DNA of 64,000 bases from sequence record PQ615101. One strand, 5' to 3'. Numbering within the stretch: position 1 is the first letter of the stretch; each line of letters begins with the position of its first letter. Source of the stretch: Shigella phage SP21535. Shown one piece after another: positions 16,714 to 59,338 of the stretch. The position numbers were made by a program, and so were the translations under genes. Under the pieces are notes generated by a model. The model was not told where the DNA came from. It did no database searches and saw only the letters and a program-made list of their open reading frames with translations.

Positions 16714-16743
16714 GTTTACTTTTCCTCTTGACTGTGGTATAAT
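16714..16743 (+). promoter_or_regulatory. early promoter
   Basis: GTTTAC / TTGACT then TGGTATAAT. Confidence 0.6.
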
Positions 16744-16770: not shown

Positions 16771-17232
16771 ATGACTATCAATACAGAAGTTTTTATCCGT
16801 CGAAATAAGCTCCGTCGTCACTTTGAGTCGGAGTTTCGTCAAATTAACAATGAGATTCGTGAGGCATCAAAAGCAGCAGGGGTCTCATCGTTTCATCTAA
16901 AATATTCTCAACATCTTCTTGATCGTGCAATTCAACGGGAGATTGATGAGACATACGTTTTTGAATTATTCCATAAAATAAAAGACCATGTTTTAGAAGT
17001 TAATGAATTCCTGAGTATGCCTCCGCGTCCTGACATTGACGAGGATTTTATTGATGGGGTTGAATATCGTCCTGGACGTTTAGAAATCACAGATGGAAAT
17101 CTTTGGCTTGGATTTACAGTTTGTAAACCTAACGCGAAGTTCAAAGACCCGTCACTTCAATGTAGGATGGCAATTATCAACAGTCGTCGTTTACCAGGAA
17201 AGGCTTCTAAAGCAGTAATTAAAACTCAATGA
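16771..17232 (+). CDS. regB: RegB site-specific endoribonuclease
   Basis: 153 aa, matches T4 RegB as I recall it (MTINTEVFIRRNKLRRHFESEFRQ..). Confidence 0.9.
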   Translation: MTINTEVFIRRNKLRRHFESEFRQINNEIREASKAAGVSSFHLKYSQHLLDRAIQREIDETYVFELFHKIKDHVLEVNEFLSMPPRPDIDEDFIDGVEYRPGRLEITDGNLWLGFTVCKPNAKFKDPSLQCRMAIINSRRLPGKASKAVIKTQ

Positions 17233-17239
17233 GGTAAGC

Positions 17240-17785
17240 ATGAGAAAAGCACTACTCGCTGGTCTATTGGCCATTTCAATGATGGCACATAGCTCCGAGC
17301 ATACTTTCAGTAATGTCCAACTCGATAACATGCGTTACGCGTATCAATTCGGGGAACAGTTTTCTAAGGATGGAAAATATAAAACACATAAAAATATCCA
17401 CAAGAGCGGATTAGGTTATATAATGGCTGCTATTTTATGGCAAGAAAGCTCTGGCGGAGTTAATTTAAAATCTAAACCAAAGCATCACGCTTACGGAATG
17501 TTCCAAAATTATTTGCCTACTATGCGAGCGAGAGTTAAGGAACTTGGTTATAATATGACCGATGCTGAAATAAAAAGAATGTTGAATAAACGATCCAATT
17601 CAGCTTCCTGGGCGTACATTGAACTTTCTTATTGGTTAAATATACATAAGGGCGATATAAGAAAAGCAATATCCTCTTATAATTCGGGATGGAATGTTAA
17701 AGCTGGTTCTAAATATGCTTCTGAAGTCCTAGAAAAGGCTAATTACCTTAAAAATAATAAACTTTTGGAAATAGTAAATGACTAA
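17240..17785 (+). CDS. secreted lytic transglycosylase-like protein
   Basis: Signal peptide MRKALLAGLLAISMMAHS; WQESSGG motif typical of SLT domains. Confidence 0.6.
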   Translation: MRKALLAGLLAISMMAHSSEHTFSNVQLDNMRYAYQFGEQFSKDGKYKTHKNIHKSGLGYIMAAILWQESSGGVNLKSKPKHHAYGMFQNYLPTMRARVKELGYNMTDAEIKRMLNKRSNSASWAYIELSYWLNIHKGDIRKAISSYNSGWNVKAGSKYASEVLEKANYLKNNKLLEIVND

Positions 17786-18125
17786 AATTTTGGTTTTATG
17801 TATAGGATTAATTTCATTTTCTGCTTCTGCGTCAGCAGATACATCATATACTGAAATTAGAGAATATGTAAATCGCACTGCGGCAGATTATTGTGGGAAA
17901 AATAAAGCATGCCAAGCTGAATTTGCGCAGAAATTAATATATGCATATAAAGACGGAGAAAGAGATAAATCAAGCAGATACAAAAACGATACATTATTAA
18001 AACGATATGCTAAAAAGTGGAATACCTTAGAATGTTCAGTTGCGGAGGAGAAAGATAAAGCCGCTTGTCATTCAATGGTTGACCGTTTGGTAGATTCTTA
18101 TAATCGAGGATTGAGTACTAGATGA
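17778..18125 (+). CDS. vs: Vs (valyl-tRNA synthetase modifier) homologue
   Basis: 115 aa, same length as T4 Vs, positioned between regB and tk. Confidence 0.6.
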   Translation: MTKILVLCIGLISFSASASADTSYTEIREYVNRTAADYCGKNKACQAEFAQKLIYAYKDGERDKSSRYKNDTLLKRYAKKWNTLECSVAEEKDKAACHSMVDRLVDSYNRGLSTR

Positions 18126-18589
18126 TTGTAAAATATATCAAGGGCGATATTGTCGCCCTTTTCGCTGAAGGTAAAAATATTGCGCATGGATGCAATTGTT
18201 TTCATACTATGGGTTCAGGCGTAGCGGGTCAATTAACCAAAGCTTTCCCTAAAATTTTGGAAGCTGATAAATTACAGACTGAATGGGGTGATGTAACTAA
18301 ACTTGGTTCTTACTCAGTCTATGAAAAATACTTTAGGACTCATAAAGCGTATTGCTTCAACCTTTATACTCAATTTCAACCAGGGCCAAATTTTGAGTAT
18401 TCCGCTTTAATGAATTGTATGTTAGAATTAAATGAGTTTGGTGAAAATAAACTGATTAAACCTACAATCTATATGCCTAGGATTGGTGCAGGCATAGGTA
18501 AAGGGAACTGGGATATTATTGAGGGGATTTTAGATACATATTCCTCTAAATTAGAAATTGTGATTGTTGATTGGGAACCATTATTATGA
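18122..18589 (+). CDS. macro-domain-like protein
   Basis: NIAHGCNCFHTMGSGVAGQL resembles the macro domain glycine-rich motif; later YMPRIGAGIGKGNW resembles the second motif. Confidence 0.5.
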   Translation: MIVKYIKGDIVALFAEGKNIAHGCNCFHTMGSGVAGQLTKAFPKILEADKLQTEWGDVTKLGSYSVYEKYFRTHKAYCFNLYTQFQPGPNFEYSALMNCMLELNEFGENKLIKPTIYMPRIGAGIGKGNWDIIEGILDTYSSKLEIVIVDWEPLL

Positions 18590-18798
18590 ATATACATTAT
18601 CCACATCCATATGACCCAAAGAATAAGGCAGTAATTATTCGTCAATGGGAACGCATTTGCCGTACTAAATGTCCAATTAATAGTCCACACGATGTAGATA
18701 AAGACTACATTGGAACATTCGTTGAATATACCTTTATTGATAGGAAAGGTCGTAAACAACATGTAGAAGAATATTGCTTAAAGGTTACATGGTTATGA
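18586..18798 (+). CDS. hypothetical protein
   Basis: Track ORF 18571..18798 (TTG); ATG 18586 overlaps upstream stop. Confidence 0.5.
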   Translation: MNIHYPHPYDPKNKAVIIRQWERICRTKCPINSPHDVDKDYIGTFVEYTFIDRKGRKQHVEEYCLKVTWL

Positions 18799-18980
18799 GT
18801 CTGAGTAAAGAACAAAAAGATAAATTGTTTGAGCTTATCCATGAACTTCTAGATGAGCATACAGAAGCAAACACCTTTTATGATGAATACGGCCCGCTAT
18901 CTCCCGAACAGCAAGAAGAATTTGCTGACCGGTTTGATAAGAAAGAAAACGAATTAATAGCTTATGTGAATACGCTTTAA
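18789..18980 (+). CDS. hypothetical protein
   Basis: Track ORF 18774..18980 (TTG); ATG 18789 behind AAAGG. Confidence 0.5.
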   Translation: MVMSLSKEQKDKLFELIHELLDEHTEANTFYDEYGPLSPEQQEEFADRFDKKENELIAYVNTL

Positions 18981-18989
18981 GAAGGTGAT

Positions 18990-19571
18990 ATGGCGAGTTT
19001 AATTTTTACTTATGCAGCAATGAATGCTGGAAAATCTGCTTCTCTTTTGACTGCTGCGCATAATTATAAAGAACGCGGAATGGGTGTATTAGTTCTTAAA
19101 CCTGCTATTGATACTCGCGATTCTGTCTGTGAAGTCGTTTCTCGCATTGGAATTAAGCAGGAAGCAAATATTATTACAGATGATATGGATATTTTCGAGT
19201 TCTATAAATGGGCTGAAGCACAAAAAGATATTCATTGCGTATTTGTAGATGAAGCCCAGTTTTTAAAAACTGAACAGGTGCATCAATTGAGCCGAATTGT
19301 TGATACATATAATGTTCCTGTTATGGCCTATGGTCTAAGGACTGATTTCGCCGGAAAATTATTTGAAGGTTCTAAAGAACTTTTGGCGATTGCAGATAAA
19401 CTTATTGAACTAAAGGCAGTTTGTCATTGTGGTAAAAAAGCTATTATGACAGCTCGATTAATGGAAGATGGAACACCCGTTAAAGAAGGTAATCAAATCT
19501 GTATTGGTGATGAAATTTATGTTTCTTTGTGTAGAAAACATTGGAATGAATTAACTAAAAAGCTCGGTTAG
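18990..19571 (+). CDS. tk: thymidine kinase
   Basis: 193 aa (T4 Tk is 193 aa); P-loop NAGKSAS; zinc-ribbon cysteines near C-terminus. Confidence 0.9.
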   Translation: MASLIFTYAAMNAGKSASLLTAAHNYKERGMGVLVLKPAIDTRDSVCEVVSRIGIKQEANIITDDMDIFEFYKWAEAQKDIHCVFVDEAQFLKTEQVHQLSRIVDTYNVPVMAYGLRTDFAGKLFEGSKELLAIADKLIELKAVCHCGKKAIMTARLMEDGTPVKEGNQICIGDEIYVSLCRKHWNELTKKLG

Positions 19572-58675: not shown

Positions 58676-58969
58676 ATGAAAAAATTTATCTTTGCTACAA
58701 TTTTTGCTTTAGCTTCTTGTGCTGCTCAGCCTGCTATGGCAGGTTATGATAAAGATTTGTGCGAATGGTCTATGACTGCGGATCAGACTGAGGTTGAAAC
58801 TCAAATTGAAGCGGATATTATGAATATCGTTGAACGTGATCGTCCTGAAATGAAAGCTGAAGTGCAAAAACAGCTTAAGTCTGGTGGTGTAATGCAGTAT
58901 AATTATGTTCTATATTGCGATAAAAACTTTAATAATAAAAATATCATCGCTGAAGTGGTAGGTGAGTAA
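58676..58969 (+). CDS. sp: Spackle-like periplasmic protein
   Basis: Track ORF 58628..58969; ATG 58676 behind GAGGAG; 97 aa with signal peptide, same size as T4 Sp. Confidence 0.65.
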   Translation: MKKFIFATIFALASCAAQPAMAGYDKDLCEWSMTADQTEVETQIEADIMNIVERDRPEMKAEVQKQLKSGGVMQYNYVLYCDKNFNNKNIIAEVVGE

Positions 58970-58981
58970 TTAGAGGTTAAT

Positions 58982-59338
58982 ATGTATAGTTCTGAATTTT
59001 CATATTTAAAAATGGAAAAAATTTCATACGATTTTATAGATGAAAAGGTTTATTACAGTTTCCATGAACCGCGTTTTAATAGTGAGGTTGGGTTTATTGT
59101 AGTAAAAGACAATTTCATTTTAAAAATATATTCAGCATTAAAGGATTTTCATTACGAAAATATTAACCTAAAATTTAATAAAGAAAACGTTCGTAATTGC
59201 GCAGTAACAATTACAGGAAATAAAGGTACATGTGTTATGCTATCTGATGAAATTAATGATTTGCTAAATGATGCAGAAAATATTACTGCACCATCTATTG
59301 ATGACCAAATTTTTAATGCTTTTATGAATAGAGGTTAA
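58982..59338 (+). CDS. hypothetical protein
   Basis: 118 aa ORF. Confidence 0.5.
   Translation: MYSSEFSYLKMEKISYDFIDEKVYYSFHEPRFNSEVGFIVVKDNFILKIYSALKDFHYENINLKFNKENVRNCAVTITGNKGTCVMLSDEINDLLNDAENITAPSIDDQIFNAFMNRG

What the first reader, a model, noticed from the sequence alone, without database searches (positions are those of the whole stretch)
18122..18589. Macro-domain-like protein in the vs-tk interval
The 155-aa ORF has the glycine-rich motif arrangement of macro domains (NIAHGCNCFHTMGSGVAGQL, later YMPRIGAGIGKGNW), which bind or hydrolyse ADP-ribose derivatives. T-even phages ADP-ribosylate host proteins, and ADP-ribose-derived signals feature in several bacterial defence systems, so a phage macro domain could be regulatory or counter-defensive.
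Basis: partly seen in the sequence, partly recalled or inferred. Interest (0 to 1): 0.5.

Follow-up and report, generated by a model that had tools for sequence, protein, structure and literature searches.

The report
T4 tk.4 (adfM) anti-DarT2 macrodomain
This ORF is the well-conserved T4 gene tk.4, a real macrodomain that a 2025 preprint already showed protects T4 from the DNA-ADP-ribosylating DarTG2 defence, so the finding is correct but already known.

Summary

What I add concerns the catalytic site. Tk.4 has no DarG/TARG1 catalytic lysine. An invariant Gln84 (motif NxYTQ; 115 of 118 homologs keep Y[T/S]Q and none has Lys) sits at that position. This matches Streptomyces SCO6735, whose Gln85 is essential for cleaving thymidine-linked ADP-ribose from DNA. 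The phiKZ protein also called AdfM is a Lys-type, DarG-like protein. Phages therefore appear to have recruited two different macrodomain lineages against DarT2. The enzymology of Tk.4 itself has not been shown.

The parts
18122..18589 (+). tk.4 / adfM: single-domain macrodomain protein, 155 aa
18185..18220 (+). Loop 1, H22-G23-C24-N25-C26...G31-x-G33 (HGCNCFHTMGSG). H22 and N25 correspond to SCO6735 His24 and Asn27.
   Evidence: G23, N25, C26 and G33 are invariant; H22, C24, M30 and G31 are >=90% conserved in 59 homologs. Residue mapping comes from the SCO6735 alignment and mutagenesis in PMC9411070.
18359..18373 (+). N80-L-Y82-T83-Q84 motif at the end of strand beta 75-84. Q84 occupies the position of the catalytic Lys of TARG1 (K84) and DarG (K80), and of Gln85 in SCO6735.
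   Evidence: Invariant in alignment A1. 115 of 118 homologs keep Y[T/S]Q and none has Lys. Aligned to TARG1 K84, DarG FPTK and SCO6735 NMIGQ. Q85A is inactive in SCO6735.
18476..18511 (+). Phosphate-binding loop P119-R-I121-G122-A-G124-I-G-K-G128-N-W130
   Evidence: P119, I121, G122 and G124 are invariant. The loop aligns to SCO6735 PRIGCGLAGGTW, where G126/G128 correspond to Tk.4 G122/G124. The TARG1 D125 column is Gly/Ala here.
17778..18125 (+). vs (valyl-tRNA synthetase modifier), upstream gene. Its stop overlaps the tk.4 start (ATGA at 18122-18125).
   Evidence: Annotation in relatives and in T4; junction sequence
18586..18798 (+). tk.3 homolog (70 aa, DUF7202). Its ATG overlaps the tk.4 stop (ATGA at 18586-18589).
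   Evidence: Pfam DUF7202 8.6e-38; junction and translation; T4 alignment
16771..17232 (+). regB, first gene of the co-oriented regB-vs.1-vs-tk.4-tk.3-tk.2-tk cluster
   Evidence: Pfam REGB_T4 1.4e-68; a sigma70-like site at 16715-16743 lies just upstream, but the promoter scan overall is no better than shuffles

Best explanation
The ORF is the ortholog of T4 tk.4 (adfM), identical in protein. It is an early-expressed, stand-alone macrodomain that protects the phage from the DarTG2 toxin-antitoxin defence. DarT2 ADP-ribosylates thymidine (N3) in single-stranded phage DNA and so blocks replication. Tk.4 most likely removes that ADP-ribose as a DNA ADP-ribosyl glycohydrolase.

Shown: the macrodomain fold; the conserved ADP-ribose-site residues; and, in the literature, the genetic requirement of tk.4 for T4 growth on a DarTG2 host.

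Inferred: that the protection is enzymatic, and that catalysis follows the SCO6735 (Gln-type) mechanism. In that mechanism Gln84, held by Asn25, positions the distal ribose, and a backbone-held water initiates cleavage. This differs from the lysine-based chemistry of DarG, TARG1 and phiKZ AdfM.
Against: No enzymology, catalytic mutant or complementation exists for Tk.4 itself, and the preprint says only that enzymatic removal 'seems likely'. Two SCO6735 residues important for DNA substrates have no counterpart: Lys34 corresponds to Ser/Ala32, and Lys89 lies in a longer mobile loop that T-even Tk.4 lacks. I could not inspect side-chain geometry in the model. The genetic evidence is a preprint and was obtained under special conditions (M9 glucose, 30 C).
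Confidence: 0.78

Rival explanations
1. Tk.4 neutralises DarTG2 without catalysis, by binding and inhibiting DarT2 or by shielding ADP-ribosylated DNA.
For: Catalytically dead SCO6735 Q85A, DarG K80A and TARG1 K84A all inhibit DarT in vitro by interaction, SCO6735 most strongly. No Tk.4 enzymology exists.
Against: The residues that are strictly invariant across phage and bacterial homologs are the ADP-ribose-site and catalytic-position residues N25, Q84, G122 and G124. Most bacterial homologs are orphans with no DarT-sized neighbour to bind. Tk.4 lacks DarG's DarT-binding C-terminal domain.
Confidence: 0.1
2. Its main activity is on small ADP-ribose derivatives, as the legacy annotation 'phosphatase / A1pp motif / Poa1p-like' or 'O-acetyl-ADP-ribose deacetylase' implies. 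DarTG2 protection would then be secondary or indirect.
Against: Those names are homology transfers, not assays. Poa1p has Ser where Tk.4 has the invariant Gln, carries a large insertion, and has Phe152 where Tk.4 has Gly/Ala. T4 has no known pathway that generates ADP-ribose 1''-phosphate (general knowledge). The only phenotype on record is DarTG2-specific.
Confidence: 0.07
3. It reverses or tunes T4's own ADP-ribosylation or RNAylation of host proteins by Alt, ModA and ModB.
For: T4 encodes three ADP-ribosyltransferases, and the gene is co-expressed with early genes (general knowledge; gene order).
Against: The T4 transferases modify arginine, a linkage that ALC1/TARG1-class macrodomains are not known to cleave (general knowledge). 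The family is common in phages and bacteria that lack Alt/Mod homologs. The preprint found the gene conditionally needed only with DarTG2.
Confidence: 0.03
4. It degrades ADP-ribose-derived immune signals such as Thoeris gcADPR or His-ADPR.
Against: There is no specific similarity to known signal-degrading or sponge proteins, and the nearest characterised relatives all act on base- or protein-linked ADP-ribose. This was not tested directly here.
Confidence: 0.02

Closest known systems
T4 Tk.4 / AdfM (NP_049723.1; HIDEN-SEQ preprint 10.1101/2025.11.20.689424)
   Same: Identical 155-aa protein and the same position downstream of vs. The published anti-DarTG2 phenotype therefore transfers directly.
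   Different: There are only six silent nucleotide differences. The host phage is LH2-like, not T4, and it lacks tk.1 and has a divergent tk.2 downstream.
Streptomyces coelicolor SCO6735 and Bacteroides Bt_1257 (PDB 5E3B, 2FG1): Gln-type ALC1-like macrodomains
   Different: Only 19-27% identical to Tk.4 in the multiple alignment A3. T-even Tk.4 lacks the roughly 5-6-residue longer 'mobile loop' with Lys89, and lacks Lys34. Loop 1 reads HGCNC, as in Poa1p, rather than HVCND.
DarG antitoxin macrodomain (T. aquaticus 5M31/5M3E, M. tuberculosis 5M3I)
   Different: The catalytic Lys80 (FPTK) is replaced by Gln (LYTQ). There is no DarT-binding C-terminal domain and no adjacent darT. NCBIfam DarG scores 30 bits against a cut-off of 250.
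phiKZ gp104 'AdfM' (Cell Rep 2026, PMC13309987)
   Same: A phage-encoded, single-domain macrodomain that counters DarTG2. The name was coined independently.
   Different: phiKZ AdfM is DarG-type: 9e-25 to Mtb DarG, Lys kept, and no hit to SCO6735, BT1257 or TARG1. BLASTP aligns only 23 residues with Tk.4. It is imported into the phage nucleus, and its enzymology is demonstrated, unlike that of Tk.4.
Human TARG1/OARD1 and yeast Poa1p
   Same: Same ALC1/TARG1-like fold class and size, with the N-terminal I-x-Y-[IV]-K-G-[DN] start and PRIG-x-G loop.
   Different: The TARG1 Lys84/Asp125 dyad corresponds to Gln84/Gly126. Poa1p has Ser at the Gln position and a long insertion.

Membership tests
Macro domain (Pfam PF01661) | Profile match above the curated gathering score | tested here: met
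   27.7 bits against a cut-off of 22, covering residues 22-132
Macro domain (Pfam PF01661) | Three-layer alpha/beta/alpha macro fold | tested here: met
Macro domain (Pfam PF01661) | Binds ADP-ribose | not testable with these tools
   Only inferred, from the conserved loop-1 Asn and the Gly-rich phosphate loop
ALC1/TARG1-like macrodomain class | Closest structural and sequence neighbours are TARG1, DarG, SCO6735/Bt_1257 and Poa1p rather than MacroD, viral or PARG classes | tested here: met
SCO6735/Bt_1257 Gln-type subclass | Gln at the position of TARG1 K84 / DarG K80, with a stabilising Asn (SCO6735 Q85/N27) | tested here: met
   Q84 and N25 are invariant; register established, with the numbering checked against PMC9411070
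SCO6735/Bt_1257 Gln-type subclass | Longer 'mobile loop' carrying Lys89, plus Lys34, for DNA binding | tested here: not met
   Bt_1257 has 6 extra residues after the Gln relative to the Tk.4 profile. Tk.4 reads QFQPGPN with no Lys, and the Lys34 position is Ser32. Some bacterial members of the family do have a longer, Lys-bearing loop.
SCO6735/Bt_1257 Gln-type subclass | Hydrolyses thymidine-linked ADP-ribose on ssDNA | not testable with these tools
   Inferred from the DarTG2 phenotype of T4 delta-tk.4
DarG antitoxin (NCBIfam NF048014 equivalog) | Score above the equivalog cut-off; two-domain protein with a DarT-binding C-terminal domain | tested here: not met
   30.3 bits against a cut-off of 250. 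The match covers only profile positions 2-146 of 338, and the protein ends at residue 155.
DarG antitoxin (NCBIfam NF048014 equivalog) | Catalytic lysine (K80, motif FPTK) | tested here: not met
   LYTQ in Tk.4 against FPTK in Mtb DarG, Taq DarG and phiKZ gp104; no Lys in any of 118 homologs
DarG antitoxin (NCBIfam NF048014 equivalog) | Encoded next to darT | tested here: not met
   The neighbours are vs and tk.3. There is no recurrent DarT-sized neighbour in 80 bacterial loci, judged by clustering only; no DarT profile was run.
Phage anti-DarT factor AdfM (functional class) | Phage gene whose loss sensitises the phage to DarTG2 | not testable with these tools
   Reported for the identical T4 protein
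TARG1 | Lys84/Asp125 catalytic dyad | tested here: not met
   Gln84 and Gly126 at the aligned columns
Poa1p-like ADP-ribose 1''-phosphate phosphatase (source of the 'phosphatase' annotation) | Residues probed in the Poa1p structures (H23, S30, F152), and phosphatase activity | tested here: inconclusive
   H23 corresponds to H22 (kept), S30 to T29, and F152 to G126 (lost). I found no Poa1p mechanism paper in the library, and the activity cannot be tested here.

The most novel reading that the evidence does not exclude
T-even AdfM (Tk.4) is not a captured DarG. It belongs to a separate, very widespread lineage of Gln-type macrodomains (NxYTQ), found in about 5% of phage records and in many bacterial phyla as orphan genes. 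That lineage would erase N3-pyrimidine ADP-ribose (thymine in DNA, possibly uracil in RNA) by a lysine-independent, water-mediated mechanism. Phages would then have recruited two mechanistically different macrodomains against DarT2 (Gln-type in T4, Lys-type in phiKZ), and the bacterial orphans would be general genome and transcript 'ADPr erasers'.
Probability: 0.55. Interest if true: 0.4.

Novelty: already known. Interest (0 to 1): 0.22.

Why it matters
The gene explains why T-even phages resist DarTG2, and it belongs to the layered anti-DarT arsenal of these phages (AdfA, AdfN, AdfM). That part is published. What remains open is mechanistic. The T4 protein lacks the lysine used by DarG, TARG1 and phiKZ AdfM and carries the SCO6735-type glutamine instead. 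A simple Q84A or Q84K experiment would show whether a second, lysine-independent chemistry for removing ADP-ribose from DNA is in wide use among phages. It would also bear on whether one name, AdfM, covers two independent acquisitions.

Tried and rejected
- **MAFFT register.** The multiple alignment of the characterised enzymes shifted SCO6735 and Bt_1257 by two residues around the Gln. I relied instead on the HMMER pairwise and profile alignments. These reproduce the paper's residue numbering, with one small exception: I count a loop lysine as K93 where the paper says Lys94.
- **First motif count.** My first regular-expression count picked up an unrelated 'N.LG' site. I recounted with a stricter pattern.
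- **Promoter and terminator scan.** It found no more promoter-like sites than shuffles (19 against 19.2), so I draw no regulatory conclusion beyond the ATGA overlaps.
- **Hairpin at 18140-18160.** It folds no better than shuffled sequence (z -1.1).
- **Neighbour clustering in 80 bacterial loci.** It found only lineage-specific synteny and no DarT-like partner. I did not run a DarT profile, so a rare association is not excluded.
- **Poa1p catalysis.** A search for a paper on it found none in the library.

Full report
**Observation.** It lies in a co-oriented run of genes:
- regB, 16771-17232 (Pfam REGB_T4, 1e-68)
- vs.1, 17240-17785 (SLT domain)
- vs, 17778-18125
- the ORF itself
- a 70-aa DUF7202 gene, 18586-18798
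- a 61-aa DUF7438 gene, 18795-18980
- tk, 18990-19571

The start and stop codons overlap as ATGA on both sides of the ORF. The "vs-tk interval" description is therefore accurate.

**Identity.** The protein is 100% identical to T4 "ORF 60.5" (X04567) and to Tk.4 of the T4 reference genome. The reference annotates it "phosphatase; contains A1pp phosphatase motif". The six nucleotide differences from T4 are all silent third-position changes. The window itself is not T4. It matches Escherichia phage LH2 at 100% across the tk.4-tk junction, and that record labels the gene "macro domain-containing protein". Compared with T4 it lacks tk.1 and has a divergent tk.2. Other close relatives carry the names "macro domain protein", "Poa1p-like", "ADP-ribose binding module" or "phosphatase". 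The macro-domain reading is thus already in the public annotation.

**Is it a macrodomain?** Yes.
- Pfam Macro scores 27.7 bits against a gathering cut-off of 22.
- An AlphaFold2 model built on 59 homologs has mean pLDDT 95.1 and pTM 0.90, with the expected alternating strands and helices.
- Foldseek against the PDB returns TARG1, Bt_1257, Poa1p and the DarG macrodomains (E 1e-9 to 1e-6, TM 0.7-0.8).

The protein therefore belongs to the ALC1/TARG1-like class.

**What it does, from the literature.**
- A November 2025 preprint (HIDEN-SEQ, 10.1101/2025.11.20.689424) screened a T4 transposon library on a DarTG2-expressing host. It found tk.4 as the single significant hit, showed that a clean knockout sensitises T4 to DarTG2, and named the gene adfM, for anti-DarT factor Macrodomain.
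- An earlier paper from another group had shown that T4 lacking adfA and adfN is still fully DarTG2-resistant, and predicted a further factor (PMC11825919).
- The preprint's mechanistic statement is only that enzymatic removal of ADP-ribose from DNA "seems likely". It reports no assay, no catalytic mutant and no complementation.
- Only tk.4, and not the downstream tk.3, was a hit, so a polar effect is unlikely. This is my inference.

Because the window protein is identical to T4 Tk.4, the phenotype transfers directly.

**What I add: the catalytic position.**
- In an alignment of 59 homologs reaching down to 34% identity, the invariant residues are G23, N25, C26, G33, A35, D49, N80, Y82, T83, Q84, G88, P119, I121, G122 and G124.
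- Profile alignment to solved structures puts Q84 opposite TARG1 Lys84. I counted the chain numbering to confirm this. TARG1 Asp125 falls on a Gly/Ala column.
- DarG (FPTK) and phiKZ gp104 (FPTK) align their lysine with the same Gln.
- Among 118 full-length homologs, 115 keep Y-[T/S]-Q and none has Lys. Of 80 bacterial relatives, 78 keep NxY[T/S]Q, a motif that was not part of the scan pattern.
- This is the arrangement described for Streptomyces coelicolor SCO6735 (PMC9411070). SCO6735 lacks the TARG1 and DarG catalytic residues and has Gln85 at the equivalent position. It cleaves thymidine-linked ADP-ribose from DNA faster than DarG or TARG1 and rescues DarT toxicity. It is inactivated by Q85A, Q85E and N27S.
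- A direct HMMER alignment of a family member (Calothrix, NAYTQ) with SCO6735 (NMIGQ) reproduces the paper's numbering for H24, V25, N27, L29, K34, Q85, G87 and K89. This places the family's Gln on Gln85 and Tk.4 H22/N25 on His24/Asn27. The P-loop glycines G126/G128 correspond to Tk.4 G122/G124.
- The bacterial member is much closer to Bt_1257 and SCO6735 (3e-12, 7e-9) than to DarG (3e-3 to 1e-2).

**Differences from SCO6735.**
- T-even Tk.4 lacks the longer, lysine-bearing "mobile loop" that the SCO6735 authors regard as characteristic of that subclass. It also lacks Lys34.
- Its loop 1 reads HGCNC, as in yeast Poa1p.
- Some bacterial members of the NxYTQ family do have a longer loop with a Lys.
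- I therefore file Tk.4 as working like SCO6735, but not as a proven member of that subclass.

**Two different "AdfM" proteins.** A 2026 Cell Reports paper (PMC13309987) independently named phiKZ gp104 AdfM. It showed biochemically that gp104 removes DarT2-placed ADP-ribose from DNA, and it does not mention T4. That protein is DarG-type: 9e-25 to the M. tuberculosis DarG macrodomain, catalytic Lys retained, and no detectable match to SCO6735, Bt_1257 or TARG1. BLASTP aligns only 23 residues of it with Tk.4. The two phage anti-DarT2 macrodomains therefore come from different sub-lineages and probably use different chemistry.

**Origin and distribution.**
- tblastn finds relatives in 2750 of 50,697 phage records. 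These span T4-like, Felix O1-like, rV5-like and Pseudomonas, Vibrio, Acinetobacter and actinobacterial phages.
- More than 520 stretches in bacterial genomes encode relatives.
- In the 80 loci fetched they are stand-alone genes of about 150 aa.
- Clustering their neighbours revealed only lineage-specific housekeeping synteny and no recurrent DarT-sized partner.
- This fits an orphan "eraser" like SCO6735 rather than a captured antitoxin.
- DarG profile matches are weak and cover only the macro part: NCBIfam 30 bits against a cut-off of 250, PADLOC 36 bits.

**Rivals.**
- *Non-catalytic inhibition of DarT2.* This is possible, because dead SCO6735, DarG and TARG1 all inhibit DarT in vitro. The pattern of invariant residues argues for catalysis.
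- *The legacy "phosphatase" reading.* It rests on homology to Poa1p, which differs at the Gln and Phe152 positions and carries a large insertion. It is not excluded as a side activity.
- *Reversal of T4's own arginine ADP-ribosylation, or degradation of ADP-ribose-derived immune signals.* Neither has specific support.

**Verdict.** However, the gene is a long-annotated macrodomain whose anti-defence role has been reported, so it is already known. The residual interest lies in the Lys-to-Gln catalytic difference, the apparently independent recruitment of two macrodomain lineages by phages, and the missing enzymology for Tk.4.

Noticed in passing
window 18560-19100 (and the whole window): The window is not T4 itself. 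It matches Escherichia phage LH2 (OQ378934.1) at 100% in one piece. Relative to T4 it lacks tk.1 and has a divergent tk.2, and most close relatives carry about 373 bp of extra sequence here.
   Followed up: partly
window 18571-18798 and 18774-18980: The mechanical ORF starts (TTG at 18571 and 18774) are over-extended. The likely real starts are ATG 18586 (70 aa, DUF7202, T4 tk.3) and ATG 18795 (61 aa, DUF7438, tk.2-like), each overlapping the upstream stop as ATGA. This suggests translational coupling along vs-tk.4-tk.3-tk.2.
   Followed up: partly
window 18140-18160: A perfect 8-bp inverted repeat, AAGGGCGA-TATTG-TCGCCCTT, lies inside tk.4 codons 7-13, and the scan flagged it as terminator-like on the minus strand. 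It is identical in T4, but the region folds no better than shuffles (z -1.1).
   Followed up: partly
window 58928-59335 (+): A divergent homolog (31% identity over 142 aa) of T4 gp61.2, the AdfA anti-DarT factor family. The window therefore carries a second, much more variable anti-DarT-related gene.
   Followed up: no
loci L033, L041, L046, L065, L081 (neighbours of the macrodomain gene): In five bacterial loci from different lineages, the Tk.4-family gene lies near a Nudix/NrtR-like protein of about 236 aa. This hints at a link to NAD/ADP-ribose metabolism for the cellular orphans. The identification is by eye from the sequence, with no profile run.
   Followed up: no
window 17778-18125 (vs): The gene immediately upstream, vs (valyl-tRNA synthetase modifier), is reported in the same preprint as the most strongly depleted T4 gene in minimal medium. 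Two adjacent, translationally overlapping genes thus have unrelated conditional phenotypes.
   Followed up: no
window 17240-17785 (vs.1): The vs.1 homolog has a signal-peptide-like N-terminus and a lytic transglycosylase SLT domain (Pfam 24.7 bits against a cut-off of 21.3), although T4 annotates it only as hypothetical.
   Followed up: no
literature, not sequence: The name AdfM was given independently to two non-orthologous phage macrodomains: T4 Tk.4 (Gln-type) and phiKZ gp104 (DarG/Lys-type). The 2026 paper states that no macrodomain Adf had been reported.
   Followed up: yes
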